Assembly: GCA_964016885.1 (NCBI GenBank)
Contig: OZ024743.1
Location: forward strand, 73,718,001-73,782,000
Direction: 5' to 3'
Length of the DNA: 64,000 nucleotides
DNA from: Eledone cirrhosa
Lineage: Eukaryota
Shown: positions 4,151-62,700 of the stretch, one piece after another
Numbering within the stretch: position 1 is the first letter of the stretch
Layout of the letters: every line of letters starts with the position of its first letter
Translations under genes and position numbers: made by a program
Notes under the pieces: model-generated
Database searches by the model: none
Told to the model about the DNA's origin: nothing
The model's input: the letters and a program-made list of their open reading frames with translations, nothing else

Positions 4151-4374
4151 AACGCTGATGCCCCTACATGCAAACACACCAACTACAGGGGGGGGGGGTA
4201 ATCCCCCCCCCCCCCCTGCGGTGTCTTTAAAATGGGAATGGTAAATTCAGTCATATAGTCCTCATTAGCATTAAAATTACGGAATGTCCGTGATTGAATT
4301 GCCTTTGATAATAACTCTCCTTGGTTTAGTAATAAATAAGAATTGGCATCCAACACCGCAAACGATCTTAATGT

Positions 4375-6735
4375 TAATGTAGTCCTAGATATGATAATGT
4401 AATCCTAGATACATATGATAATGTAGTCCTAGATACATATGATAATGTAGTCCTAGATAAACATATGATAATGTAGTCCTAGATACACATATGATAATGT
4501 AGTCCTAGATACATATGATAATGTAGTCCTACATACATATGATAATGTAGTCCTAGATACACATATGATAATGTAGTCCTAGATATATATGATAATGTAG
4601 TCCTACATACATATGATAATGTAGTCCTAGATACACATATGATAATGTAATCCTAGATACACATATGATAATGTAGTCCTAGATATATATGATAATGTAG
4701 TCCTAGATACACATATGATAATGTAGTCCTAGATACATATGATAATGTAGTCCTACATACATATGATAATGTAGTCCTAGATACACATATGATAATGTAG
4801 TCCTAGATACATATGATACTGTAGTCCTACATACATATGATAATGTAGTCCTAGATACACATATGATAATGTAATCCTAGATACACATATGATAATGTAG
4901 TCCTAGATATATATGATAATGTAGTCCTAGATACATATGATAATGTAGTCCTACATACATATGATAATGTAGTCCTAGATACACATATGATAATGTAGTC
5001 CTAGATACACATATGATAATGTAGTCCTAGATAAACATATGATAATGTATTCCTAGATACATATATGATAATGTAGTCCTAGATACACATGTAATAATGT
5101 AGTCCTAGATACACATGTGATAATGTAGTCCTAGATAAACATATGATAATGTAGTCCTAGATAAACATATGATAATGTAGTCCTAGATAAACATATGATA
5201 ATGTAGTCCTAGATACATATGTGATAATGTAGTCCTAGATACACATGTGATAATGTAGTCCTAGATACACATATGATAATGTAGTCCTAGATACACATGT
5301 GATAATGTAGTCCTAGATACACATATGATAATATAGTCCTAGATACACATATGGTATGTAGTCCTAGATACACATGTGATAATGTAGTCCTAGATACACA
5401 TGTGATAATGTAGTCCTAGATACACATATGATAATGTAGTCCTAGATACACATATGGTAATGTAGTCCTAGATACACATGTGATAATGTAGTCCTAGATA
5501 CATATGTGATAATGTTGTCATAGATACACATACGATAATGTAGTCCTAGATCACATATGATAATGTAGTCCTAGATACACATGATAATGTAGTCCTAGAT
5601 ACACATGATAATGTAGTCCTAGATACACATGTGATAATGTAGTCCTAGATACACATATGATAATGTAGTCCTAGATACACATGTGATAATGTAGTCCTAG
5701 ATACACATATGATAATGTAGTCCTAGATACACATATGGTAATGTAGTCCTAGATACATATGTGATAATGTTGTCATAGATACACATGCGATAATGTAGTC
5801 CTAGATATATATGATAATGTAGTCCTAGATACACATATGATAATGTAGTCCTAGATACACATATGATAATGTAGTCCTAGATATATATGATAATGTAGTC
5901 CTAGATACACATATGATAATGTAGTCCTAGATATATATGATAATGTAGTCCTAGATACACATATGATAATGTAGTCCTAGATATATATGATAATGTAGTC
6001 CTAGATATATATGATAATGTAGTCCTAGATACACATATGATAATGTAGTCCTAGATATATATGATAATGTAGTCCTAGATACATATGATAATGTAGTCCT
6101 AGATACACATATGATAATGTAGTCCTAGAAACACATATGATAATGTAGTCCTAGATACATATGATAATGTAGTCCTAGATATATATGATAATGTAGTCCT
6201 AGATACATATGATAATGTAGTCCTAGATACATATGATAATGTAGTCCTAGATACATCTTATAATGTAGACCTAGATACATATATGATAATGTAGTCCTAG
6301 ATATATATGATAATGTAGTCCTAGCTACATATGATAATGTAGTCCTAGATACATATGATAATGTAGTCCTAGATACATCTTATAATGTAGACCTAGATAC
6401 ATATATGATAATGTAGTCCTAGATATATATGATAATGTAGTCCTAGATACATATGATAATGTAGTCCTAGATACACATATGATAATGTAGTCCTAGATAA
6501 ACATATGATAATGTAGACCTAGATACATATATGATAATGTAGTCCTAGATATATATGATAATGTAGTCATAGATACATATATGATAATGTAGTACTAGCT
6601 ACATATGATAATGTAGTCCTAGATACATATGATAATGTATTCCTAGATACATCTTATAATGTAGACCTAGATACATATGATAATGTAGTCCTAGATATAT
6701 ATGATAATATATTCTAAGATACACATGTGATAATT
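4375..6735. repeat. 25-27 bp minisatellite (gataatgtagtcctagatac[ac]atat), roughly 90 units
   Basis: Directly visible tandem array with 2-bp length variants. Confidence 0.97.
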
Positions 6736-8425: not shown

Positions 8426-8711
8426 GAGAGAGAGAGATATATATATAGATATATATGTATATATACATATATACAGTATATGTGTATATATATGTGTATA
8501 TATATATATATATATATTTTTTTTTTTATTTTATAGAAGGAGCTTCTACAGGACTAGTACTGTTTCATTCAGATGACATTTTTTACTCTGCCATGTATTG
8601 AGTACCTTACTTACTGTGGTTATCCCCGACTCAACCCGGAACCTACGTATATATATATATATATATACATATTATATACATATATATATATATGTATATA
8701 TATATAAATAG

Positions 8712-12158: not shown

Positions 12159-12230
12159 CGGCGATGAGTGTGTTCTGTTATTAATTCTGGCAATATTATT
12201 ACACAAATATGACCCTCCCCAAGTATAACA

Positions 12231-12261
<31 letters not shown>

Positions 12262-12757
12262 TATATACATATATGTATATGATCGACGGAGAAACATCTA
12301 ATATGTTAATAAATTGTTATTTCATGCAATAATATATATACATACATACATACACATATATATATATGTAAAAGGTAAACAGAAATAACAACACAATCGG
12401 TACAGTATATGGAACGTATATATTACGTAAACGCTTGATATAGCATGAAGAGGGTCTTAAACTCAAAATAGTCTCTTACAATTAAATAGCTCAAAGAAAG
12501 TAGCTTTTCTGAGCAGTGTAATATAATTGAATATAAAATAGAGATCAACACAGATATAAACATATATGTGTTCAAATTGTAAGAGACCAAGATTGCAAGG
12601 TTGAAAGAAATACTAACTATTAACTATATTGTTTGCCAGTCTCAATTTAAAGTAATAAATCAAGAAAAAGAAAAACAAACCTATATATGGCAGCTAATTG
12701 TTAGTATTTTTGTCAACCTAGCGATCTTGATGCCTTACAATTTGAACACATATATTC

Positions 12758-12789
<32 letters not shown>

Positions 12790-12798
<9 letters not shown>

Positions 12799-13690
12799 TA
12801 AACGGAATAGAAAATGCTGACAAATTGTTCACAGTTGAAAAATGGTTTAATTAGGAATAAAAGAGTATTAGTAATTGTATGGGTTAGTATTCAGTTGTGG
12901 TTTTAAGTTTTTAAGTTTTTACGGGTTGCGCATTTCTAAATGCTTTTCAAAAATAATTTTGAGATAGATGTGTGTGTATATAGCAGAGTAATTCGTGGTA
13001 GCAGGGATGGTCAGTAAGAATGTGTCTGTAAGCAATGGGGGGTATTTTAGCATTATACACACACACACTTATCTTAATAGCTATTTGACACACATCCCTG
13101 CTAATCATTATCACAACATCGAACACCTTACTACTACTACACACACACACACACACATATTTGTTGTGAAAGAGTCATTTCTCAATCTTGGCGCAAAACC
13201 AATTTTTTATTCACATGACCTCTACCGACCAATCAAAATTGTTTTGACCACAAGAATTTTTGCAAACACCAAGTAGCGCTGGAGCCACTTTTTTAACATA
13301 AAAACAGTCTTGGCGCAAAATCAATTTTTTACATTCACATGACCTCTACCGACCAATCAAAATTGTTTTGACCACAAGAATTTTTGCAACACCAAAGTAG
13401 CGCTGGAGCCACTTTTTTAACATAAAAACAGGTAGAATTCCCAAAACTAATCAGATCAGAGCAAACAACACGGACACTCTATCTCAAAATTATTTTTGAA
13501 AAGCATTTAGAAATGCGCAACCAGTAAAAACTTAAAAACTTAAAACCACAACTGAATACTAACCCATACAATTACTAATACTCTTTTATTTCTAATTAAA
13601 CCATTTTTCAACTGTGAACAATTTGTCAGCATTTTCTATTCCGTTTACCAATATATAATAACTTGTGTGTTACACCTCTATTCTTTTAAC
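12790..13690. repeat. Inverted repeat (about 178-bp arms, 12790-12967 / 13478-13655) enclosing a tandem duplication of about 120 bp; (TA)n flanks
   Basis: Arms are near-perfect reverse complements; tcttggcgcaaaa...cataaaaacag occurs twice inside. Confidence 0.9.
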
Positions 13691-13793
13691 TATATATATA
13701 TATATATATATATATACACCCCACTCTCAACGTGAACCTAATACCTACACTGTTCGTAACTGCACTCCCTGTTATTGTTTGTTTTTCACTTTT

Positions 13794-21914: not shown

Positions 21915-22031
<117 letters not shown>

Positions 22032-22149
22032 TTATATTTATATACATATATATTTTTTTATAAATTAATATATATATATATATATATAAATTTATATTTA
22101 TATACATATATATTTTTTTATAAATTAATATATATATATATATATATAT

Positions 22150-23184
22150 ATTGGAATAAATGCTCTGAAATAGCGATATATATGTGAATATAGACATAGA
22201 ATATTCGAAAATATTCTGTATGTTTATAATAAACATTTTGAAGACCTAATCGCTATAGAATAGAATACGTCACGTATTACAATTAGATTCTCGATAAAAG
22301 CAAGGGAAGTAATCTACGCGTTTCATTCTTGTTAGAAATCATCAGGACTACATATCCAGTGCTTTTATCGAGAATGACACAGCTAGAGACTTATAGAATA
22401 CTTAGCTGTGTACAGGAACTGGTTTGAAAGAGCGGTTGCCGGTCCGGCAGAAATTAGAAATTGGAATAAATGCTCTGAAATAGCGATATATATGTGAATA
22501 TAGACATAGAATATTCGAAAATATTCTGTATGTTTATAATAAACATTTTGAAGACCTAATCGCTATAGAATAGAATACGTCACGTATTACAATTAGATTC
22601 TCGATAAAAGCAAGGGAAGTAATCTACGCGTTTCATTCTTGTTAGAAATCATCAGGACTACATATCCAGTGCTTTTATCGAGAATGACACAGCTAGAGAC
22701 TTATAGAATACTTAGCTGTGTACAGGAACTGGTTTGAAAGAGCGGTTGCCGGTCCGGCAGAAATTAGAAATTGGAATAAATGCTCTGAAATAGCGATATA
22801 TATGTGAATATAGACATAGAATATTCGAAAATATTCTGTATGTTTATAATAAACATTTTGAAGACCTAATCGCTATAGAATAGAATACGTCACGTATTAC
22901 AATTAGATTCTCGATAAAAGCAAGGGAAGTAATCTACGCGTTTCATTCTTGTTAGAAATCATCAGGACTACATATCCAGTGCTTTTATCGAGAATGACAC
23001 AGCTAGAGACTTATAGAATACTTAGCTGTGTACAAACTGGTTTGAAAGAGCGGTTGCCGGTCCGGCAGAAATTAGAAATTGGAATAAATGCTCTGAAATA
23101 GCGATATATATGTGAATATAGACATAGAATATTCGAAAATATTCTGTATGTTTATAATAAACATTTTGAAGACCTAATCGCTAT
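22150..23184 (-). mobile_element. Retrozyme-like 310-bp tandem array, left arm (about 3.3 units; hammerheads at 22309-22351, 22619-22661, 22929-22971)
   Basis: Units start at 22151, 22461, 22771 and 23079 (2-bp deletion in unit 3); reverse complement of the right-arm unit; (TA)n on the left. Confidence 0.9.
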
Positions 23185-25667
23185 ATTCACATATATATCG
23201 CTATTTCAGAGCATTTATTCCAATTTCTAATTTCTGCCGGACCGGCAACCGCTCTTTCAAACCAGTTCCTGTACACAGCTAAGTATTCTATAAGTCTCTA
23301 GCTGTGTCATTCTCGATAAAAGCACTGGATATGTAGTCCTGATGATTTCTAACAAGAATGAAACGCGTAGATTACTTCCCTTGCTTTTATCGAGAATCTA
23401 ATTGTAATACGTGACGTATTCTATTCTATAGCGATTAGGTCTTCAAAATGTTTATTATAAACATACAGAATATTTTCGAATATTCTATGTCTATATTCAC
23501 ATATATATCGCTATTTCAGAGCATTTATTCCAATTTCTAATTTCTGCCGGACCGGCAACCGCTCTTTCAAACCAGTTCCTGTACACAGCTAAGTATTCTA
23601 TAAGTCTCTAGCTGTGTCATTCTCGATAAAAGCACTGGATATGTAGTCCTGATGATTTCTAACAAGAATGAAACGCGTAGATTACTTCCCTTGCTTTTAT
23701 CGAGAATCTAATTGTAATACGTGACGTATTCTATTCTATAGCGATTAGGTCTTCAAAATGTTTATTATAAACATACAGAATATTTTCGAATATTCTATGT
23801 CTATATTCACATATATATCGCTATTTCAGAGCATTTATTCCAATTTCTAATTTCTGCCGGACCGGCAACCGCTCTTTCAAACCAGTTCCTGTACACAGCT
23901 AAGTATTCTATAAGTCTCTAGCTGTGTCATTCTCGATAAAAGCACTGGATATGTAGTCCTGATGATTTCTAACAAGAATGAAACGCGTAGATTACTTCCC
24001 TTGCTTTTATCGAGAATCTAATTGTAATACGTGACGTATTCTATTCTATAGCGATTAGGTCTTCAAAATGTTTATTATAAACATACAGAATATTTTCGAA
24101 TATTCTATGTCTATATTCACATATATATCGCTATTTCAGAGCATTTATTCCAATTTCTAATTTCTGCCGGACCGGCAACCGCTCTTTCAAACCAGTTCCT
24201 GTACACAGCTAAGTATTCTATAAGTCTCTAGCTGTGTCATTCTCGATAAAAGCACTGGATATGTAGTCCTGATGATTTCTAACAAGAATGAAACGCGTAG
24301 ATTACTTCCCTTGCTTTTATCGAGAATCTAATTGTAATACGTGACGTATTCTATTCTATAGCGATTAGGTCTTCAAAATGTTTATTATAAACATACAGAA
24401 TATTTTCGAATATTCTATGTCTATATTCACATATATATCGCTATTTCAGAGCATTTATTCCAATTTCTAATTTCTGCCGGACCGGCAACCGCTCTTTCAA
24501 ACCAGTTCCTGTACACAGCTAAGTATTCTATAAGTCTCTAGCTGTGTCATTCTCGATAAAAGCACTGGATATGTAGTCCTGATGATTTCTAACAAGAATG
24601 AAACGCGTAGATTACTTCCCTTGCTTTTATCGAGAATCTAATTGTAATACGTGACGTATTCTATTCTATAGCGATTAGGTCTTCAAAATGTTTATTATAA
24701 ACATACAGAATATTTTCGAATATTCTATGTCTATATTCACATATATATCGCTATTTCAGAGCATTTATTCCAATTTCTAATTTCTGCCGGACCGGCAACC
24801 GCTCTTTCAAACCAGTTCCTGTACACAGCTAAGTATTCTATAAGTCTCTAGCTGTGTCATTCTCGATAAAAGCACTGGATATGTAGTCCTGATGATTTCT
24901 AACAAGAATGAAACGCGTAGATTACTTCCCTTGCTTTTATCGAGAATCTAATTGTAATACGTGACGTATTCTATTCTATAGCGATTAGGTCTTCAAAATG
25001 TTTATTATAAACATACAGAATATTTTCGAATATTCTATGTCTATATTCACATATATATCGCTATTTCAGAGCATTTATTCCAATTTCTAATTTCTGCCGG
25101 ACCGGCAACCGCTCTTTCAAACCAGTTCCTGTACACAGCTAAGTATTCTATAAGTCTCTAGCTGTGTCATTCTCGATAAAAGCACTGGATATGTAGTCCT
25201 GATGATTTCTAACAAGAATGAAACGCGTAGATTACTTCCCTTGCTTTTATCGAGAATCTAATTGTAATACGTGACGTATTCTATTCTATAGCGATTAGGT
25301 CTTCAAAATGTTTATTATAAACATACAGAATATTTTCGAATATTCTATGTCTATATTCACATATATATCGCTATTTCAGAGCATTTATTCCAATTTCTAA
25401 TTTCTGCCGGACCGGCAACCGCTCTTTCAAACCAGTTCCTGTACACAGCTAAGTATTCTATAAGTCTCTAGCTGTGTCATTCTCGATAAAAGCACTGGAT
25501 ATGTAGTCCTGATGATTTCTAACAAGAATGAAACGCGTAGATTACTTCCCTTGCTTTTATCGAGAATCTAATTGTAATACGTGACGTATTCTATTCTATA
25601 GCGATTAGGTCTTCAAAATGTTTATTATAAACATACAGAATATTTTCGAATATTCTATGTCTATATT
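23181..25667 (+). mobile_element. Retrozyme-like 310-bp tandem array, right arm (8 units, one hammerhead each)
   Basis: ctatattcac recurs every 310 bp from 23181 to 25351; ends in (TA)n. Confidence 0.9.
23333..23375 (+). ncRNA. Minimal type I hammerhead ribozyme (repeats every 310 bp up to 25503-25545)
   Basis: gtagtc-CTGATGA-t ttct aaca agaa t-GAAA-cgcg-TA-gattac. Predicted cleavage after GUA at 23369. Stem I is extended by the 16-bp attctcgataaaagca/tgcttttatcgagaat. Confidence 0.88.
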
Positions 25668-26525
25668 ATATATATATATACATAAATGGCAATTTCTGTC
25701 TTTTTGTGAACCTAAAACTTAAAAATTACCAAACAGATCTTGATGAAACTTGACACGTGTGTGGGGGTTCATGCCCATTTGATTTCGTACGTATATTTCA
25801 TTTCAATCAAAATGTTCCCCCGGGGTTCAAATCCCCGCTGAGAACCCCCGCTTAATTTTTTCCCTTCGATTTATATGAAATGTAAACCATAGGTAAATGA
25901 CAAGATATGATGCCTATTCACAAAATTTCAGCAAATTTCATTAATATTAAGATAACCTAATGGGGGTTAAACGCCCTATAGTGAAAATTTTGTAAGCCCA
26001 TAACTTGAGTATTGGAACTTTGAATTTCTAATTTGAAAATAATGCTTTACACAAAAATGAAGTGATCAAGTTTTGAATTGATATTTTGAAAAAAATTATT
26101 TATAAAAAACAAAATAAGAACAAGATTTAATAATGTAATTTTGATTTGATATATTACAAAAAATAATTGTTTCTACTTTTGGCACAAGGCCAGCAATTAC
26201 CAAGTGCATTACTGGTACATTATTTTATCGACCCCGTAAGGATGAAAGGCAAAGTAAACCTCGGCGGGATTTGAACTCAGAATGGCAAGGACCGTAACTC
26301 TATGCGTCAAAGCATGGCGTCCGACCCTCTACCGATACTGCCAATCCACCGCCCCTATATTTCAAAAAATAATGTTTTCCAATTTTTCATGCATTACATT
26401 TTACATTGAGTAATATTGAAATGCAGAGTTTTTCGCTATAAATTATATCACTGATTCAAAATCAATCATCATTTTCTTACAAAAGAAATATGTGAAACGC
26501 CACAAGGCGCGGGTAATTCGGCTAG
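25668..26525 (+). mobile_element. Non-autonomous Helitron-like element with a nested SINE (26163-26355, minus)
   Basis: TA-rich start; 3' GC hairpin cgccacaaggcg then ggtaattcggCTAG|t. Confidence 0.55.
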
Positions 26526-26544
26526 TATATATATTATGGCTCCC

Positions 26545-26960
26545 CCCCCCCTCGTTATCGAGTATGCCCATTGCACGATATAACATTATTAATTGTTTCT
26601 ACTTTTGGCACAAGGCCAGCAATTAACCAGTACATTACTGCTACTTTATTTTATCGACCCCGTAAGGATGAAAGGCAAAGTTAAACTCGGCGGGTGCAAT
26701 ATCTGTGAATGAAGATTTTTTTTAAAGTGAGGAAAGACTGTGCACTGAGCCAATCCCACTCTCTGAGCGACAGTAGCTATAACCCGAAAAGAAGAAAAGT
26801 TCAACATCGTCGGTAACTACTGAGCCGCCGGTTTTATGTCGGAGTTATCCCAGTTTCCTGAGTTGCTTTCTCCTAGAAGAATGCCCTGACAAAGGCTAGG
26901 GGTCCTTCACTCTCAGTGGTTTAACCGCGCGATCGGGTATCTAGCCCGATTATTTCTATG
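26545..26960 (+). mobile_element. SINE/LINE-UTR-like repeat interrupted by a SINE fragment (26592-26694, minus)
   Basis: Matches uninterrupted 34340-34495 (ttatcgagtatg...gaggaaagactgtgcactgagccaat). Confidence 0.6.
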
Positions 26961-27025: not shown

Positions 27026-27105
<80 letters not shown>

Positions 27106-27178
27106 GTTATTCCGGGTTGAATCGGAGGTAACCACAGTAAGTAAGGTACTCAATACATAGCAGAGTATAAAAGTTTTA

Positions 27179-27292
27179 ATATAGATGAGATTCTACAGGA
27201 CTAGAACTGTTTCATTCTTTAGAAATCATCAGGAAATCTTGATGATTTCTAAAGAATGAAAAAGTTCTAGTCCTGTAGAATCTCATCTATTT
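27179..27292. repeat. Foldback palindrome (arms about 55 bp) of a hammerhead-core segment
   Basis: Left arm reads CTGATGA-tttctaaagaat-GAAA on minus; the right arm is the same segment on plus with two core changes. A same-family fragment lies at 8530-8650. Confidence 0.8.
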
Positions 27293-27834: not shown

Positions 27835-30800
27835 GATGGGAGGAAGGTATAAAAGCCAACTTTGATGTTCGTGCCTAGCTATGGTCATGAATTTGGGGTA
27901 TTGACCGAAAGAGTACGGTCGCAAATATGTGGGGCAATGGAGTTCTCCCAAAGAGTGTTTGGAGAACGTTACTCGATAGAGTACATAGCTCGGTGTTGAG
28001 GGAGTCGCTCCAGGCTGGAGTACCGTTACTCGATAGAGTACATAGCTCGGTGTTGAGGGAGTCGCTCCAGGCTGGAGTACCGTTACTCGATAGAGTACAT
28101 AGCTCGGTGTTCAGGAAGTCGCTCCAGGCTGGAGTACCGTTACTCGATAGAGTACATAGCTCGGTGTTCAGGGAGTCGCTCCAGGCTGGAGTACCGTTAC
28201 TCTATAGAGTACATAGCTCGGTGTTCAGGGAGTCGCTTCAGGATGGAGTACCGTTACTCGATAGAGTACATAGTTCGGTGTTCAGGGAGTCGCTCCAGGC
28301 TGGAGTACCGTTACTCTATAGAGTACATAGCTCGGTGTTCAGGGAGTCACTCCAGGCTGGAGTAACGTTACTCGATAGAGTACATAGTTCAGTGTTCAGG
28401 GAGTCGCTCCAGGTTGGAGTACCGTTACTCGATAGAGTACATAGCTCGGTGTTCAGGGAGTCACTCCAGGCTGGAGTAACGTTACTCGATAGAGTATATA
28501 GCTCGGTGTTCAGGGAGTCACTCCAGGCTGGAGTGATGTGACTCGATAGAGTACATAGCTCGGTGTTCAGGGAGTCGCTCCAGGCTGGAGTAACGTTACT
28601 CGATAGAGTACATAGCTCGGTGTTCAGGGAGTCACTCCAGGCTGGAGTGATGTGACTCGATAGAGTACATGGCTCGGTGTTCAGGGAGTCGCTCCAGGCT
28701 GGAGTACCGTTACTCGATAGAGTACATAGCTCGGTGTTCAGGGAGTCGCTCCAGGTTGGAGTAACGTTACTCGATAGAGTACATAGCTCGGTGTTCAGGG
28801 AGTCGCTCAAGGTTGGAGTAACGTTACTCGATAGAGTACATAGTTCAGTGTTCAGGGAGTCGCTCCAGGTTGGAGTAACGTTACTCGATAGAGTACATAG
28901 TTCGGTGTTCAGGGAGTCGCTCCAGGCTGGAGTAACGTTACTCGATAGAGTACATAGCTCGGTGTTCAGGGAGTCGCTCAAGGTTGGAGTAACGTTACTC
29001 GATAGAGTACATAGCTCGGTGTTCAGGGAGTCGCTCCAGGCTGGAGTAACGTTACTCGATAGAGTACATAGCTCGGTGTTCAGGGAGTCGCTCTAGGCTG
29101 GAGTAACGTTACTCGATAGAGTACATAGTTCGGTGTTCAGGGAGTCGCTCCAGGTTGGAGTAACGTTACTCGATAGAGTACATAGCTCGGTGTTCAGGGA
29201 GTCGCTCTAGGCTGGAGTAACGTTACTCGATAGTGTACATAGCTCGGTGTTCAGGGAGTCGCTCCAGGTTGGAGTAACGTTACTCGATAGAGTACATAGT
29301 TCGGTGTTCAGGGAGTCGCTCCAGGCTGGAGTAACGTTACTCGATAGAGTACATAGCTCGGTGTTCAGGGAGTCGCTCAAGGTTGGAGTAACGTTACTCG
29401 ATAGAGTACATAGCTCGGTGTTCAGGGAGTCGCTCCAGGCTGGAGTAACGTTACTCGATAGAGTACATAGCTCGGTGTTCAGGGAGTCGCTCTAGGCTGG
29501 AGTAACGTTACTCGATAGAGTACATAGTTCGGTGTTCAGGGAGTCGCTCCAGGTTGGAGTAACGTTACTCGATAGAGTACATAGCTCGGTGTTCAGGGAG
29601 TCGCTCTAGGCTGGAGTAACGTTACTCGATAGAGTACATAGTTCGGTGTTCAGGGAGTCGCTCCAGGATGGAGTACCGTTACTCGATAGAGTACATAGTT
29701 CGGTGTTCAGGGAGTCGCTCCAGGCTGGAGTAACGTTACTCGATAGAGTACATAGCTCGGTCTTCAGGGAGTCGCTCCAGGCTGGAGTAACGTTACTCGA
29801 TAGAGTACATAGCTCGGTGTTCAGGGAGTCACTCCAGGCTGGAGTGATGTGACTCGATAGAGTACATGGCTCGGTGTTCAGGGAGTCGCTCCAGGCTGGA
29901 GTACCGTTACTCTATAGAGTACATAGTTCGGTGTTCAGGGAGTCGCTCCAGGTTGGAGTAACGTTACTCGATAGAGTACATAGCTCGGTGTTCAGGGAGT
30001 CGCTCAAGGTTGGAGTAACGTTACTCGATAGAGTACATAGTTCAGTGTTCAGGGAGTCGCTCCAGGTTGGAGTAACGTTACTCGATAGAGTACATAGCTC
30101 GGTGTTCAGGGAGTCGCTCCAGGTTGGAGTAACGTTACTCGATAGAGTACATAGTTCAGTGTTCAGGGAGTCGCTCCAGGGTGGAGTAACGTTACTCGAT
30201 AGAGTACATAGTTCAGTGTTCAGGGAGTCGCTCCAGGTTGGAGTAACGTTACTCGATAGAGTACATAGTTCGGTGTTCAGGGAGTCGCTCCAGGTTGGAG
30301 TAACGTTACTCGATAGAGTACATAGCTCTGTGTTCAGGGAGTCGCTCCAGACTGGAGTAACGTTACTCGATAGAGTACATAGCTCGGTCTTCAGGGAGTC
30401 GCTCCAGGCTGGAGTAACGTTACTCGATAGAGTACATAGCTCGGTGTTCAGGGAGTCACTCCAGGCTGGAGTGATGTGACTCGATAGAGTACATGGCTCG
30501 GTGTTCAGGGAGTCGCTCCAGGCTGGAGTACCGTTACTCGATAGAGTACATAGTTCAGTGTTCAGGGAGTCGCTCCAGGTTGGAGTAACGTTACTCGATA
30601 GAGTACATAGTTCGGTGTTCAGGGAGTCGCTCCAGGCTGGAGTACCGTTACTCTATAGAGTACATAGCTCGGTGTTCAGGGAGTCGCTCCAGGTTGGAGT
30701 AACGTTACACGATAGAGTACATAGTTCAGTGTTCAGGGAGTCGCTCCAGGTTGGAGTAACGTTACTCGATAGAGTACATAGTTCAGTGTTCAGGGAGTCG

Positions 30801-31140
30801 CTCCAGGTTGGAGTAACGTTACTCGATAGAGTACATAGTTCGGTGTTCAGGGAGTCGCTCCAGGCTGGAGTACCGTTACTCGATAGAGTACATAGCTCGG
30901 TGTTCAGGAAGTCGCTGCAGGTTGGAGTAACGTTACTCGATAGAGTGCATAGTTCGGTGTTCAGGGAGTCGTTCCAGGTAGATTCATTACTGCTTCAAAT
31001 TGAGAGATCACAGCTCCGATACTATGAATATGTGATTAAAATATTTCAGGAAAGAATCACTGGACATATTTTACGAGCAAAGCCGATCGGTAGAGACCCA
31101 AAGGTTTGCATGAGCAATAGGAGACGGTTACGTCGGATAC
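27835..31140 (+). mobile_element. RTE-clade LINE fragment split by an internal minisatellite
   Basis: Left flank YGHEFGVLTERVRSQI; right flank LLLQIERSQLRYYEYV..QERITGHILRAKPIGR, matching the RTE post-RT region. Confidence 0.8.
27968..30978. repeat. 57-bp (19-codon) minisatellite, about 53 units
   Basis: gttactcgatagagtacatagctcggtgttcagggagtcgctccaggctggagtaac repeated in tandem. Confidence 0.97.
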
Positions 31141-31537: not shown

Positions 31538-31615
<78 letters not shown>

Positions 31616-31734
31616 GTATAGTATATTTGGCAATATACCGTATGTTTAATTAAAAACATTTAGAAGACCATACGCTATCGGTTTTAAAGTAGTGACTATG
31701 TCACTTACTTCTTTTCGGCGAAAGAAGGGAGAGA

Positions 31735-31776
31735 AGCTAACAGTCTGTTTCACGCTGGTTGGCGATCATCAGAGCC
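31735..31776 (-). ncRNA. Type I hammerhead motif in a diverged relative (31640-31840) of the 310-bp unit
   Basis: ggct-CTGATGA-t cgc caacca gcg t-GAAA-cagactg-TT-agct. The flank aaacatttagaagacc..cgctat matches the 310-bp unit. Confidence 0.7.
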
Positions 31777-31945
31777 ACGCGCCCCCTGCGAAAATTATAG
31801 AAGCTGTATTCTTATAGAATTCTAGTAATAATCAGGAGCTATGTGTGTGGGTGTGTGTGTGCGAGCGCGCTCGTGTAAGTGTCTGTGTGCGCTTCTGATC
31901 AGCACGTACACACACACACACACTCATACATATATATATATACAT

Positions 31946-42839: not shown

Positions 42840-42843
<4 letters not shown>
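42740..42843 (-). repeat. Fragment of the 617-bp unit family
   Basis: Reverse complement of ...atcggcgcacgagttcacgataaac...gggctcaataattcagat..., abutting (TA)n. Confidence 0.8.
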
Positions 42844-42884
<41 letters not shown>

Positions 42885-42913
42885 AAGAATAGAGGTGTAA
42901 CACATGAGTTATG

Positions 42914-43296
42914 ATATATTGGTAAAAGGAAAAGAAAATGCTGACAAATTGTTCCCAGTGAAAAATAGTTTAATTAGGAATAAGTAAAAATTAGTAATAG
43001 TATTGGTTAGTATTCAGTTTGGGTTTTAAGTTTTACCGGTTGCGCATTTCTAATGCTTTGCAAAAATAATTTTGAGATAGAGCGTCCGTAATGTTTGCTC
43101 TAATCTCTAGAGCAAACATTACGGACGCTCTATCTCAAAATTATTTTTGCAAAGCATTAGAAATGCGCAACCGGTAAAACTTAAAACCCAAACTGAATAC
43201 TAACCAATACTATTACTAATTTTTACTTATTCCTAATTAAACTATTTTTCACTGGGAACAATTTGTCAGCATTTTCTTTTCCTTTTACCAATATAT
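42914..43296. repeat. Perfect foldback with arms of about 190 bp and a loop of about 5 nt; same family as 12790-13690
   Basis: Centre gtaatgtttgctcta-atctc-tagagcaaacattac; (TA)n flanks. Confidence 0.92.
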
Positions 43297-43371
43297 ATAT
43301 ATATATATATACATATATATATACATATATATATACAAGTAAGAATACTTTCGAAACAGCGAGTGGGTTTG

Positions 43372-49387: not shown

Positions 49388-50054
49388 GCAGCAGCAGCAG
49401 CAACAACAACAACAACCGACCAGTACAGATTTTGCAGAATTGCAACTAATGATTTCTGCTTTAAGAAGGGAAGTAACAGGAATAAAGGCAAGCATTCGGG
49501 TAGGACCCCACAATGATGTGTCTTATCGGAATGCCTTGCTAAAGAATCTCCCTGTACCTCTTGCCGTATCTGGGCACACTGAGAAGACTGCGGAATCTGC
49601 TACCCATGAAGTGATTGCCATTGGGGTACCAGAGGACAAGGCTGATCTTCAGGCATTTTCTGCCAGCTCAGTCAAAGACCTAGGCTGTGTTCCCCCAAAA
49701 GGTGCTCTCCGCCTTGATCGAGCTCGTCCAAAACCCAGACTCATCAGGCTGTCTTTTCCGGACCCCGCTGAGGCAATCTCATACCATCTGGCCTCTGTTA
49801 AAGCTGGGCGTGAAAATCGGATTACCTTCCGAACACGCCCAGGCCTACCACCCTATGTACGTCCAAAGCTACGTGCTGCAGCTTCCTTGAATCGGAACTC
49901 AGCACAACATGAAAGTTTTAGTCTGCGTGATGATGGGCAGATCTGGAGGTTTGTTAAGGCTGGTGAAACGTGGAAGAGAGATACCAGCTGGTCTGAGTGT
50001 ACTCTACCCACAATAACTAGCAATGAAAAAACTGCAACAACTCTGGGAAACTAA
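48761..50054 (+). pseudogene. LINE ORF1 with PHD finger; frameshift near 49090-49115; poly-His/poly-Gln insert
   Basis: CHIC..WVECGTC...CLQC...FQC, then a coiled-coil-like segment and VIAIGVPE..RLDRARPKPRLIRLSF. Confidence 0.75.
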
Positions 50055-50113
50055 ACCAGAACAACCTGCCACGCTCTACACACCATCATAAACTGCAAGC
50101 AGGGTACAAACTG

Positions 50114-52810
50114 TTGTCCTTAAATGCTCGCAGTTTATGCAACAAGGTACATCTGTTTGGCTCCTACGTCAGAAGCATTGACCCTGACTTCATCACAGTC
50201 ACGGAAACATGGGCACATTCCTTACTCTGTGATGGGGTTTTCAGCATTACTGGGTACAACCTTTTCCGCAAGGACCGCATTAATTGCCGTGGTGGTGGTG
50301 TGATGGTCTACGTTCGTTCAAACTTTTCGGTAATTCCTTGCGTTGATTTGAACGAATCACAGGAAGAAGTTTTTTTTTGTGACATACGTATGACCATGTC
50401 AACACTTCTGCTTGGTGTTGTTTATCGCCACCCAAACTACCATCAGGACACACAGCTTTACCATATCCTCAGAGTTGCTGCCAGGAAAACAGCCACTTAT
50501 GTGTTTATTGCAGGTGACTTCAATCGTCCTGAGATCGATTGGGAAACCTTTCGTTGGCCACAAAGTGCAAACGATTTCCTTGAACTAGTGCTGGACTCAA
50601 ACTGGTCACAAGTAGTCACCTCTCCAACAAGAGGTGACAACACTTTGGACCTGATCTTCACCACTACTCCTGAAGTGGTTATCAGTTGTACTACTGAGGA
50701 ACCTCTAGGCGATTCTGATCATGCTATGATCATTGCCAATCTGGCTCTTGCGGGCAGCAACAAAAACCAGAGCCATCTCCAATCTGCTTGCTTTGATTGG
50801 AAGAAAGCAGATTGGAACTTGTACTGCACTGAGCTACAGCGCCCAAACTGGCATGAGTTCTATAACTCTGGAGATGTGAACACTATACTCCAGAGCATCC
50901 TGGACTCAATGTGGATAGCGTGTGCAGCATCGGTGCCACGTAAGCAGAAAAAAACCACCCCCAAAGTGCAATTTGGGAAACTTCAGCGGTGCGACTTGCC
51001 AGGAAAGAACACCGGAACGCTGAACGGGAATATAAACTGCATAAATCAGATGCCAACAGAAAAAAGCGGAATAAATCTTCTAACTATCTCAAGCAAGTGA
51101 CAAAGAAGGCAGTGCTTGAATTTGAATAGTGCATAGCAACCAATCCTGACAGTAAGGTGTTCTGGAAATATGTTCATTCAAAGCAGAGATCTCACTCTTC
51201 AGTTGGTCCTCTTCGCAATCCTCACACAAGCCAGATCACTGTCGATCCCAAAGAATGCGCAGAACTCATTGCTGAGTGCTATGCAAGTATTTCTACTGTT
51301 GAAAACCAGAATGTACCATCTCCACCATCTCTAACATCAAATTCCATAACAACTATGGAATTTACACCTGCAATGTTGCGACGTCATCTTAAGAATAAGC
51401 GCAACTATGACTCCCCTGGTCTTGATGGTGTTACATACCTGCTTCTCAAACGTGGTGGGTATTTCCTTTTGCGCCAGCTTTCCTCTTTCAATACTGTCTC
51501 AACAATGGTGCTACTCCGGAGCAGTGGAAAACTGCCAGTGTCATCCCCTGTTCAAAAAGGGCAACCGCATGTCACCTGTCAACAATCGTCCAGTCAGTCT
51601 TACTAGCTGTATGGCCAAACTGATGGAATCCTGTGTCAGAGAAACACTTTGGAACTTCTGGAGCTCTCACAGCCTCATCCGGCCCTCGCAGTTTGGATTT
51701 ATCCCTAACTCCAGCTGCTGTGATCAGCTTATCGAAGACATCACCCGGATCACTGACAGCGGCTCATGGGTGGATGTTGTTTACCTTGACTTTGCTAAGG
51801 CTTTTAATTCTGTACCACACAAAAGACTTATGGCAAAACTCTCTGCAATGGGTGTGAGGGATGATCTTTTCGACTAGTTGAAATCCTTCATTCTCAGCCG
51901 AAAAGAGGTAGTTACGGTTCTAGGACAGCATTCTTCACCATATGAGATGTCATCTGGTGTACCACAGGGATCTGTTCTTGATCTCCTTTTGTTCGTGGCA
52001 TATATTAATGACATAGATGCCAACTTACAGAATGCCACGGTACTAAAATATGCAGATGACATCAAGCTGTACCTTGAAATCAAAAGGACTGATCCTGAAA
52101 TCTACAACTCTTTCCTACAATCAGACCTGGACACAATGCAGCATTGGATCACAGACTGGCAACTGAAGCTGGCTGTGGACAAGTGTACCACCATGCATTT
52201 TGGGAGGAAAAATCCAGCGTCCACATACTCCCTCCACAACACTGATATCAAGAAGTCCTCTTGTGAACGTGACCTGGACATTACTGTCAGCAGCGATTTG
52301 CGTTGGACAAAGCATGTCTCTAAGATTGTCAAGAAGGCTGAGGGTGTCTTGGCATCACTCAGCAAGACCTTTGTTAGCCGCTCTCCAGCCATCTATTTAA
52401 AGCTGTATACAGCTATGGTACGACCACACTTGGAATTCGCATCATCAGTCTGGAACCCCTATCTTGCTCAGAACATTGACCTCCTGGAAACTGTTCAAAG
52501 ACGTGCGACCAAGCGCATACCCTCCATCAGACACCTACCATACTCTGAACGCCTTGTTTCCCTGGGCATGGATTCATTGAAGCTCCGACGTCTGGCAATG
52601 GACTTGGTAAACATCCACAAAGTTATTAACCATCTCGCCAACAACAACCCTGAGCCCCTTTTTGATCTCCATGTGTCTAACACACGTGGACATGCCTACA
52701 AAATCAGAAAACAGCACAGCTCCCATGATTTTCGTAGACATTTTTTCACGCTCAGAGTTGCTGAAGCATGGAACAAACTGCCTGCGTCAGTTGTTAGCTG
52801 CATCCTTTAA
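50114..52810 (+). pseudogene. LINE ORF2 (APE endonuclease plus reverse transcriptase) with frameshifts and stops
   Basis: NARSL, TETW, GDFN, LDLIF, SDH; RPVSLTS, QFGF, LDFAKAF, GVPQGSVL, YADD, RPHLEFAS.VWNP. Confidence 0.93.
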
Positions 52811-53769: not shown

Positions 53770-55353
53770 ATATAAACGGAAAAAATGAAACGAAATTTCA
53801 TTTCCCACTCTTAGTACGGCTGTTACTTAAATATAAGTATGTATACGTACATACATATATGTATACAGACGTACAGTAGTATGTATATATATATACATAT
53901 ATGCAGACATATAAATATGTACGTATGGATTCACCGAACATTTATTATAATGCTCGGTGTGTTTGTAAACAAACATCCCGTATTAAGCCGTAGTGTCTAG
54001 CAACAATCGTTGCTCGTTTGTTCAACACTGACAAAGGAACGCTGTACAAGTTTCAAACTTATTAGGTATCGTCAGCAAAGTATACCTTCCTGCCAGATGG
54101 TTGAACGTCTGAAAGTATAAACTTTCCTTATGCACATTAACGGGTGAGCAGCCTAATTTGCATATCGAGTGAGTTAATCGGCGGGGGTACCGAAAACGAT
54201 AAACGGAAAAAATGACACGAAATTTCATTTCCCACTCTTAGTACGGCTGTTACTTAAATATAAGTATGTATACGTACATACATATATGTATACAGACGTA
54301 CAGTAGTATGTATATATATATACATACATGCACATATATATATATGTACGTATGGATTCACCGAACATTTATTATAATGCTCGCTGTGTTTGTAAACAAA
54401 CATCCCGTATTAAGCCGTAGTGTCTAGCAACCATCGTTGCTCGTTTGTTCAACACTGACAAAGGAACGCTGTATAAGTTTCAAGCTTATTAGCTATCGTC
54501 AGTAACGTATACCTTCCTGCCAGATGGTTGAACGTCTGAAAGTATAAACTTTCCTTATGCACATTAACGGCTGAGCAGCCTAATTTGCATGTCGAGTGAG
54601 TTAATCGGCAGGGGTTCCGAAAACGATAAGCGGAAAAAATGAAACGAAATTTCATTTCCCACTCTTAGTACGGCTGTTACTTAAATATAAGTATGTATAC
54701 GTACATACATATATGTATACAGACGTACAGTAGTATGTATATATATATACATACATGCACACATATATATATGTACGTATCGATTCACCGAAAATTTATT
54801 ATAATGCTCGCTGTGTTTGTAAACAAACATCCCGTATTAAGCCGTAGTGTCTAGCAACCATCGTTGCACGTTTGTTCAACACTGACAAAAGAACGCTGTA
54901 CTAGTTTCAAGCTTATTAGCTATCGTCAGCAACGTATACCTTCCTGCCAGATGGTTGAACGTCTGAAATTTCGTTTCATTTTTTCCGTTTATCGTTTTCG
55001 GTACCCCGGCCGATTAACTCACTCGATATACAAATTAGGCTGCTCAGCCGTTAATGTGCATAAGGAAAGTTTATACTTTCAGACGTTCAACCATCTGGCA
55101 GGAATGTATACGTTGCTGACGATAGCTAATAAGCTTTAAACTAGTACAGCGTTACTTTGTCAGTGTTGAACAAACGAGCAACGATGGTTGCTAGACACTA
55201 CGGCTTAATACGGGATGTTTGTTTACAAACACACCGAGCATTATAATAAATGTTCGGTGAATCCATACGTACATATATATATGTGTGCATGTATGTATAT
55301 ATATATACATACTACTGTACGTCTGTATACATATATGTATGTACGTATACATA

Positions 55354-61335: not shown

Positions 61336-61469
61336 AAGTTATATTTAAAATTGTTGGGTTACAACTAGTAAATATTTATAACTGATATGAAAGCACTCGA
61401 CAAATATTTGGAGTATATTTACAATATTAAATAAATGGAAAACTATATTTATAAAACCATATTTATTTC

Positions 61470-62700
61470 AGGTAACTGACCTTGTGGGCTTATTTTTAAT
61501 CAATTCGCTACATAGGAAAATACCTGGTACTACCGGAGGTTTATATAGGGATGACATGCTTTTACTTATTAATAATAATAACCCTGAACTAAATAGAAAA
61601 TGTAAACAAATTACAAAATTTTTTAATTACTTTAACCTTAAAATAGAAATTGAGAACAACCATAGAATAGCCAATTTCCTAGATATAACATTAAATCTCA
61701 ACACATGTCTCCACTATCCTTTTCACAAGTTGAATGAAAACTTAAACTATGTCAACTTTAACTCTAACCACCCCATATCTGTCAAAAACACTATAGTAAA
61801 CTCAGTCCAAAAACGTATCTCTAGGATCTCGTCGAATAGAAAGATTTTTGACGAAAAGGCCCAGTACTATAATGATGCACTAGCTAGGGCAGGGTATGCT
61901 GATAAGATTGTGTACATAGATAATGATAGACAAACTAAACAAAGTAACAACTTTTTTAATTACGGCAACAACATTAACAACTATAATAGAAAGCATTACA
62001 ATAATTCCAAAGGACAAAAAAGAAATAGAACTAGGAACATAATTTGGTTTGCCCCCCCTTTCTCACTAAACATTAAAACCCACATCGCTAAATTATTTTT
62101 CAAAGCTCTTGATAATCGCTTCCCTAGAACACATAGGTATCACTCAATCTTCAATAGGCATACAATTAAATTAACCTACTCATCCACCAAAAATTTCGCA
62201 CAAAATATTAATAGAATAAATAATAGGAACTTAAAACCTACTGATAATAGCATAAATAATATACAAGTTAACAAATGTAACTGTAGAGATAGATCTAAAT
62301 GTCCGTTAAATAACAACTGCTTAAAAATATAGTATACAATTGTAATGTTAATACTGACTCTAATTCTTTTAACTACGTCGGTTCCACATCGACGGAATTT
62401 AAACTTCGCTATAATAACCACAAGAATTCTTTCACAGATCCAAATAAAAAATCTTCAACGGCACTATCAGGCGTACTCTGGCAACTTAAGCTAGATAACG
62501 TTAGATATTCGACGGCTTGGAATATAGTCTCAAGAGGGATTCCTTTTAATTCATCCTCTGAGACATGTGACCTCTGCGCAGAGGAGATATTCTTTATACT
62601 AAAATCTAAAAATTCCCTTAACCTACGGACAAATTTATTCAGTTGTTGCAAACATAGATTAAACTCAACGTTTAAATATAAATTTAAATTTAAAATGTAG
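61470..62700 (+). mobile_element. 5'-truncated Penelope-like element (RT C-terminal half, linker, degraded GIY-YIG endonuclease)
   Basis: GLYRDD, NFLDITLNL, YVNFNSNHP, YNDALARAGY, RNIIWFAPPFS, CNCR..CPL, then RYNNHKNSF..TALS..W..CDLCAEE. Confidence 0.9.

What the first reader, a model, noticed from the sequence alone, without database searches (positions are those of the whole stretch)
22150..25667. 310-bp tandem array carrying 11 identical minimal hammerhead ribozymes: a young retrozyme-like element
Seen: each non-coding 310-bp unit holds gtagtc-CUGAUGA-stem II-GAAA-cgcg-UA-gattac, with stem I extended by a perfect 16-bp helix beyond an internal loop and a palindromic stem III (ACGCGU). Units look identical apart from one 2-bp deletion. 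Known: minimal type I hammerheads with short palindromic stem III occur in newt satellite 2, Penelope-like elements and metazoan non-LTR retrozymes, cleave as dimers and can yield circular monomers. Inference: read-through transcripts self-process into 310-nt monomers or circles. The U-U apposition closing stem II is non-canonical.
Basis: partly seen in the sequence, partly recalled or inferred. Interest (0 to 1): 0.9.

Follow-up and report, generated by a model that had tools for sequence, protein, structure and literature searches.

The report
Two-armed hammerhead retrozyme, Penelope-style insertion
This is a young jumping repeat, some 15,000 copies of a 310-base unit with a predicted self-cutting RNA motif, inserted as two outward-pointing arms with two fixed ends, a footprint suggesting it was likely copied round an RNA circle and pasted in by a Penelope-type retrotransposon enzyme.

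Summary
The 11 hammerhead motifs are real, but this is not one tandem array. It is 3.3 units on the minus strand plus 8 on the plus strand, with both 3' ends pointing out into (TA)n. The genome holds at least 15,072 units. All 67 two-armed insertions scored at both ends stop at two fixed sites about 35 nt apart, one per arm, never the same site twice. Inner junctions are random with short microhomology, and 12-16-nt target duplications are seen. This is the inverted-copy-plus-'tail' footprint of Penelope-like elements (PLEs); young PLE-type families here show it too. Variants fixed in an insertion are shared by both arms (77 of 77) and spare the ribozyme. Stems covary with a sister family, and a two-unit RNA folds best as a double hammerhead. 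Verdict: a non-LTR retrozyme with a canonical (not 'minimal') type I hammerhead, very likely mobilised by a PLE. Arrays are likely made at insertion by two-site priming and rolling-circle reverse transcription. Cleavage, circles and the partner family are untested. The class is known; I found no description of this insertion footprint for retrozymes.

The parts
21917..22149 (.). Left flank, (TA)n microsatellite target
22150..23185 (-). Left arm: 3.3 head-to-tail units. 3' end at 22150 is end A (unit nt 44; numbering from 23181). 5'-truncated at unit nt 247. One 2-bp deletion near 23035.
22309..22351 (-). Hammerhead core with stem I (repeats at 22619-22661 and 22929-22971)
23181..23185 (.). Head-to-head junction of the two arms, 5-nt microhomology
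23181..25667 (+). Right arm: 8 identical units plus 7 nt. 3' end at 25667 is end B (unit nt 7).
23189..23224 (+). 'Tail' interval in each unit between end site B (unit nt ~9) and end site A (unit nt ~44); inferred reverse-transcription start sites
   Evidence: compared
23309..23397 (+). Extended hammerhead: 16-bp helix 23309-23324 with 23382-23397, internal loop, stem I 23333-23338 with 23370-23375 (repeats every 310 nt)
23339..23369 (+). Catalytic core: CUGAUGA, stem II, GAAA, ACGCGU palindrome; predicted cut after 23369 (and +310k up to 25539)
25668..25681 (.). Right flank, short (TA)n

Best explanation
This is one insertion of a young, non-coding 310-nt repeat family that lies as two outward-pointing arms with two fixed 3' ends in a (TA)n target, and that is likely a non-LTR retrozyme predicted to self-cleave as a dimer, likely circularised, and likely copied round the circle and inserted by a Penelope-like element (PLE) enzyme. 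Steps. (1) Inferred: read-through transcription; adjacent units fold as a double hammerhead and cut at GUA; monomers are ligated to circles, in which the lone ribozyme cannot form helix III. (2) Inferred: a PLE RT-endonuclease dimer makes staggered nicks about 12-15 nt apart in (TA)n and primes from each nick, one at site A and one at site B, about 35 nt apart on the template. (3) Inferred: each RT runs round the template for a random number of laps and stops at a random place, and the two cDNAs join head-to-head by microhomology. Shown: the two-armed form, the one-A-one-B rule, target duplications, random inner ends, shared arm haplotypes and selection on the RNA structure. My odds: functional-type retrozyme 0.93, PLE as mobiliser 0.88, circular template 0.65-0.7.
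For: 48 of 48 divergent end pairs in the first 130 Mb of C1 are A+B; A and B ends were listed independently. 67 of 67 two-armed insertions scored at both ends are A+B. Target duplications of 12-16 nt in 9 of 17 informative loci; mismatched-flank control 1.5 +/- 1.1. Inner ends uniform along the unit (p 0.30), with 2 of 128 near the cut site against 4.5 expected; arm lengths near exponential; longest arm about 45 units. 77 of 77 testable fixed variants are shared by both arms; 25 haplotypes in 60 loci; 13 of 26 fixed variants private to one locus. Fixed stem substitutions keep the pair in 6 of 6 and none hits the core; sporadic ones keep it in 1 of 10 and 4 hit the core; p 0.0009. 15 of 28 pairs change on both sides across this unit and sister-family copies. 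Two-unit best fold is the double hammerhead, -110.0 against -94.5 kcal/mol. An inverted 5' copy and a 30-40-bp tail at one end are PLE marks. A PLE enzyme cuts and extends both strands and starts at two adjacent internal sites. Young PLE-type families with the same footprint are in this genome.
Against: No cleavage or circle data. No whole-length nucleotide homology between the unit and the 3' region of any of five PLE-type families, so the partner is not pinned. 14 fetched insertions are one-armed and 2 have only a tiny second arm. L063 switches allele part-way along one arm, and the 45-unit arm L071/L072 carries scattered linked variants; neither fits one unchanged circle. The older sister family has 1 B+B locus beside 11 A+B (read by eye). 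8 of 17 informative loci show no target duplication by my rule. In vitro, the anole PLE did not need its ribozyme and used unprocessed RNA. All end mapping except the window is from contig C1.
Confidence: 0.7

Rival explanations
1. The element is PLE-mobilised, but the template is an uncleaved linear multimer transcribed from a homogeneous source array; circles are a by-product or absent.
For: Explains the ends, the shared haplotypes and the mid-arm switch in L063. The anole PLE used unprocessed RNA in vitro.
Against: A linear template cannot give arms longer than its source, yet arms reach 27 and about 45 units. Locus-private variants fixed in every unit, beside 83 unspread singletons, point to a one-unit bottleneck. 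Selection on the ribozyme needs cleavage to matter.
Confidence: 0.2
2. A satellite: single units or pLTR relics were inserted, then grew locally by unequal crossover, and the inversion is a later DNA rearrangement (the scenario discussed in the 2026 preprint).
For: Scattered shared variants in the longest arm, and in 3 of 15 units of L036, suggest some local exchange.
Against: Fixed A+B ends with target duplications around the whole two-armed block. Both arms share one haplotype although their orientations are opposite. Singleton variants are not spread.
Confidence: 0.05
3. A SINE-like element moved by a LINE through L1-type twin priming (mechanism recalled).
For: The inverted two-armed outline is similar; a LINE-type endonuclease and RT lie in the window.
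Against: No poly(A) or simple-repeat tail in the unit. Two fixed internal ends. Inner ends do not abut the second priming site. The tail offset is a PLE mark.
Confidence: 0.03
4. Long-read fold-back artefact of the assembly.
For: Palindromes in TA-rich DNA; one duplicated insertion beside a gap (L061).
Against: The arms are not mirror images: they differ in end site and length. Junctions differ per locus, target duplications exist, and old diverged families show the same form.
Confidence: 0.01

Closest known systems
Metazoan non-LTR retrozymes (Cervera and de la Pena 2020, PMC7229834; axolotl Rtz_353 with HHR_Amex2)
   Same: Non-coding tandem unit of about 300 nt, low GC, one canonical type I hammerhead, weak palindromic helix III, U-U at the base of helix II.
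   Different: Two-armed inverted insertions with fixed A and B ends and target duplications were not found in the passages and sections read. Expression as circles is shown there and untested here. That paper's supplement could not be read.
Endonuclease-bearing Penelope-like elements (Craig 2021 PMC8557442; Arkhipova 2013 PMC3846280; Frangieh 2024 PMC11167929)
   Same: Inverted 5'-truncated copy, 30-40-nt tail at one end, microsatellite/AT-rich targets, target duplications, two internal start sites, hammerhead.
   Different: No ORF. Both arms are multi-unit concatemers. The strict one-A-one-B rule is quantified here, whereas the in vitro study saw no difference in start site between strands.
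Non-autonomous Chlamys elements such as MRC1 (Craig 2021)
   Same: Non-autonomous PLE derivatives with multicopy head-to-tail insertions.
   Different: Those share 3' sequence with their autonomous partner, and that group is described as lacking canonical hammerheads. Here there is a hammerhead and no clear 3' homology.
Vertebrate retrozymes as PLE derivatives (Li et al. 2026, bioRxiv 10.64898/2026.07.22.740005)
   Same: Proposes PLE origin and mobilisation from co-occurrence and pLTR similarity.
   Different: It discusses array growth by local amplification. The words 'tail' and 'orientation' do not occur in its main text.

Membership tests
Type I hammerhead, canonical | Core CUGANGA, GAAA, UH with helix I 6 bp and helix II 4 bp | tested here: met
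   definition. Stem II is closed by U-U; some haplotypes restore A-U.
Type I hammerhead, canonical | Short palindromic helix III allowing a dimer fold | tested here: met
   The double hammerhead is the unconstrained best fold.
Type I hammerhead, canonical | Covariation or selection on stems and core | tested here: met
   (8 related rows, so not independent events)
Type I hammerhead, canonical | Rfam model above gathering score | tested here: not met
   HH9 19.2 bits against 52
Type I hammerhead, canonical | Self-cleavage | not testable with these tools
   needs in vitro transcription
Minimal PLE hammerhead (min-HHR) | No helix III nucleotides, short helix I with poorly defined loop 1, long helix II | tested here: not met
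Non-LTR retrozyme | Non-coding tandem units of 170-400 nt, each with a type I hammerhead, dispersed at many loci | tested here: met
Non-LTR retrozyme | No LTR-PBS-PPT layout | tested here: met
   The insertion consists of units only; PBS and PPT were not searched as motifs.
Non-LTR retrozyme | Expressed as linear and circular monomers | not testable with these tools
   needs RNA data of this organism
PLE-type insertion | Inverted 5'-truncated copy, head-to-head | tested here: met
   14 one-armed exceptions
PLE-type insertion | 30-40-nt tail at one end only | tested here: met
   Modes at unit nt 9 (41 of 67) and nt 44 (43 of 67); 67 of 67 are A+B.
PLE-type insertion | AT-rich or microsatellite target, with target duplication | tested here: met
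   53 of 67 have pure TA on both sides; duplication in 9 of 17 informative loci.
Autonomous PLE | RT plus GIY-YIG ORF | tested here: not met
   longest frame 59 aa
Derivative of a named PLE pLTR in this genome | Nucleotide homology to the partner's 3' region | tested here: inconclusive
   No significant long alignment to five families. One family shares the core, the stem II arms, the GUA cut site and a short motif at end B.

The most novel reading that the evidence does not exclude
Each array is the fossil of a single rolling-circle, double-primed integration: a PLE dimer grips one ribozyme-made RNA circle, fires once from each of the two tail sites on opposite target strands, and laps the circle many times. 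This would be insertion-level proof that retrozyme circles are PLE substrates and that the PLE tail reflects obligatory asymmetric two-site priming.
Probability: 0.5. Interest if true: 0.85.

Novelty: new variant of a known kind. Interest (0 to 1): 0.68.

Why it matters
A 2020 review states that animal retrozyme repeats show no motif that tells which retrotransposon moves them. A 2026 preprint argues for PLEs from co-occurrence and pLTR similarity, with local array growth. Here the insertion ends themselves carry the PLE footprint at more than a thousand young loci (estimated). That makes three questions directly testable: which enzyme mobilises retrozymes, whether circular RNA is a real retrotransposition template, and why PLE insertions have an inverted copy and a one-sided tail. 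A 310-nt RNA with mapped start sites and intact candidate enzymes in the same genome is a ready in vitro system.

Tried and rejected
DNA search of the own genome with the unit found nothing because common words are skipped; patterns were used instead. Rfam at gathering score: 0 matches. Sequencing runs: no RNA holder listed, which is no evidence either way. The 20 holders carry 17 organism labels. I rejected horizontal transfer as unproven. X2 looks like the host or a near relative. X1 and X17 hold the unit at depth 10-12 together with traces of the host SINE-like repeat. X21 raw reads laid 0, which is no test. X4 is ambiguous. The short hammerhead pieces next to GIY-YIG hits in L139, L143 and L146 first looked like those PLEs' own ends; they are separate insertions of another family's 3' end. 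Derivation of the unit from that family's 3' region: local alignment not above shuffles, 284 of 300 scored as high. Run-off from a linear cleaved monomer: no pile-up of inner ends at the cut site. A-to-I editing as the source of fixed variants: A>G is 7 of 23 fixed against 3 of 67 sporadic substitutions, but polarity is unknown and wobble tolerance explains 4 of the 7; left open. The sigma-70 promoter scan is irrelevant to an animal and gave chance level. Earlier findings of the scan: none. Literature searches listed no paper on two-armed retrozyme insertions; one key supplement and Lunse 2017 could not be read.

Full report
Observation. The window holds two 310-bp arrays, not one: 22150-23185 (3.3 copies) and 23181-25667 (8 copies plus 7 nt). 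The first reads on minus and the second on plus, so their 5' ends meet at a 5-nt overlap and both 3' ends run outward into (TA)n. There are 3 + 8 hammerhead cores. The 8 plus units are identical and one minus unit lacks 2 bp. Unit numbering below starts at window 23181. The unit is non-coding (longest frame 59 aa) and folds better than all 100 shuffles (z -5.9).

The ribozyme. Stem I has 6 bp, an internal loop and a perfect 16-bp extension. Stem II has 4 bp closed by U-U, helix III is the palindrome ACGCGU, and the predicted cut follows GUA at 23369. Rfam sees it only below threshold (HH9, 19.2 bits, E 0.059). By the definition in Cervera and de la Pena 2014 (PMC4209133, passages) it is a canonical type I motif, not a minimal one. 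A U-U at the base of helix II occurs in axolotl HHR_Amex2 (PMC7229834, passages). For two adjacent units the unconstrained best fold is the double hammerhead with a 6-bp shared helix III: -110.0 kcal/mol against -94.5 for two separate motifs. In a circular monomer the active fold is not the minimum. These are predictions; cleavage is untested.

Copy number and age. The exact 43-nt core occurs 4177 times (control 0) and a 30-mer outside the ribozyme 15,072 times, about 4.7 Mb by multiplication. The A-end pattern has 718 forward matches (reverse counts are inflated by overlaps), which suggests roughly 1,400 or more insertions. Sporadic differences within insertions are 83 in 167,769 bases.

Insertion architecture. 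In the window and 12 stretches chosen only by the core, every complete two-armed insertion had one arm ending near unit nt 44 (end A) and the other near nt 9 (end B). I then listed A and B ends independently. In the first 130 Mb of C1 there were 66 of each, after dropping 8 B matches that lay inside variant units. All 48 divergent pairs within 16 kb were A+B. Fetching these, the unpaired ends, and arrays missed by both patterns gave 67 of 67 A+B among those scored at both ends; end modes are nt 9 (41) and nt 44 (43). Three more A+B insertions were not in that script (L034/L035, the first in L070, L071/L072). Fourteen insertions were one-armed, two had a second arm of only about 11-19 nt, and three arms ran into a gap or off the fetched stretch. 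Inner ends are spread evenly over the unit (p 0.30), 2 of 128 lie near the cut site, overlaps are mostly 0-5 nt, and arm lengths are near exponential. 53 of 67 have pure TA on both sides. Where the target is irregular, 9 of 17 show a 12-16-nt duplication (microhomology included) against 1.5 +/- 1.1 for mismatched flanks. Apart from the window, all of this comes from C1.

One template per insertion. I scored 60 two-armed loci (the duplicate L061b was dropped; arms over 5.2 kb were cut to 5 kb). 41 carry a variant fixed in both arms, 77 of 77 testable fixed variants are shared by both arms, there are 25 haplotypes, and 13 of 26 fixed variants are private to one locus. Fixed changes fall on the free core position, loop II or wobble-keeping sites: 6 of 6 in stems keep the pair and none hits the core. 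Sporadic changes keep the pair in 1 of 10 and hit the core 4 times (p 0.0009). So templates that give new insertions appear selected for an intact ribozyme fold. Against a single unchanged circle: L063 changes allele part-way along one arm, and the 45-unit arm of L071/L072 has scattered linked variants, suggesting later local exchange or mixed templates.

Sister family. An older family, 65-80% alike, has 1574 matches to one motif, with some 318-321-bp tandem runs. Aligned with this unit (8 rows), 15 of 28 pairs change on both sides and 91.7% of cells pair, against 33-43% when slid; the rows are related, so this is not a probability. Its two-armed copies read 11 A+B and 1 B+B by eye. Many of its cores have decayed.

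Who moves it. Craig 2021 (PMC8557442, passages) describes PLE insertions with an inverted 5'-truncated copy and a 30-40-bp tail often at one end only. Arkhipova 2013 (PMC3846280, passages) reports the same with 8-10-bp duplications. Frangieh 2024 (PMC11167929, parts 1-2 of 4) shows a PLE protein, predicted to be a dimer, that cuts and extends both strands of AT-rich DNA and starts at two adjacent internal sites that bound the tail; its ribozyme was dispensable in vitro. This genome has many GIY-YIG hits (150 scored of 10,596 candidates). Several young families have RT and GIY-YIG matches and show (TA)n targets, inverted arms and one-sided tails. A further family has 7717 motif matches and 104 scored ORF copies at 95-100% identity with many 758-aa open frames. 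Its hammerhead shares the core, the stem II arms, the U-U and the GUA cut site, and it has one tailed and one untailed end in 11 of 11 scorable of 12 loci, read by eye. Its protein is PLE-like by atlas features (0.99) but has only a weak Pfam GIY-YIG match and no Pfam RT match. No family's 3' region aligns to the unit above shuffles, so it is the best candidate, not a proven partner.

Mechanism and rivals. The best reading is a retrozyme whose circle is double-primed by a PLE and lapped repeatedly (0.7). The circle is inferred from long seamless arms, locus-private variants fixed in every unit, and no pile-up at the cut site. The main rival is a linear uncleaved multimer as template (0.2). Local satellite growth (0.05), LINE twin priming (0.03, mechanism recalled) and assembly artefact (0.01) fit the ends poorly.

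Novelty. Non-LTR retrozymes are known (PMC7229834, passages and Discussion). PLE mobilisation was proposed there, in a review (PMC7761336, passages) and in a 2026 preprint (parts 1-3 of 5 plus a term search). Eight searches listed no description of two-armed, A+B-ended retrozyme insertions. The 2020 supplement and Lunse 2017 were unreadable, bioRxiv supplements are closed, and subscription papers are not searched, so prior notice cannot be excluded. The host is a 3.0-Gb animal genome; its look recalls octopods, which I did not test. Verdict: new variant of a known kind, interest 0.68.

Noticed in passing
window 31590-31840 and 12172-12274: Pieces of the older sister retrozyme family.
   Followed up: partly
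window 12750-13716 and 42843-43335; 27100-27235; 8581-8641: Remnants of a PLE family's 3' region, matching in both orientations, and short 3' pieces of the hammerhead-bearing PLE-type family.
   Followed up: partly
window 50027-52807: Broken LINE-type ORF with endonuclease and RT Pfam matches.
   Followed up: partly
window 61391-62329: 313-aa frame with RT-like motifs by eye; no Pfam match; possibly another PLE remnant.
   Followed up: partly
window 27960-30978, 4371-6734, 53772-54968: Other homogeneous tandem arrays: 57 bp x 53, 26/50 bp x 93/47, 427 bp x 2.8.
   Followed up: no
window 26162-26354: Very high-copy SINE-like repeat next to the array (depth about 1e7 in run X2); a second copy lies near 26590-26700.
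   Followed up: partly
L083, L102, L237 junctions: Three insertions with different variants share the same inner junction, at the two strands of the 16-bp helix (unit 129/202), a likely structure-guided join.
   Followed up: partly
L043:2343-2520: The junction switches strand three times with a repeated short segment, like template switching during joining.
   Followed up: no
L230-L234; L185; L186: Young PLE-type family with 758-aa frames starting right after its hammerhead, a tail of about 68 nt, and thousands of short two-armed 3' pieces.
   Followed up: yes
runs X1, X3, X4, X11: The unit assembles as a single 340-nt circular contig, identical or one letter off, in runs with different organism labels; trace carry-over is likely for X1, and X4 (depth 128 beside its own diverged SINE) is unexplained.
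   Followed up: partly
unit nt 97, 138, 155, 174, 191, 209, 281 across L031-L102: A>G is the commonest fixed substitution (7 of 23; sporadic 3 of 67); could reflect RNA editing written back, or wobble tolerance.
   Followed up: partly
L137, L138, L141, L145 and L112, L113, L136, L144, L150: Several other hammerhead-like motifs near PLE-type ORFs (output partly cut).
   Followed up: no
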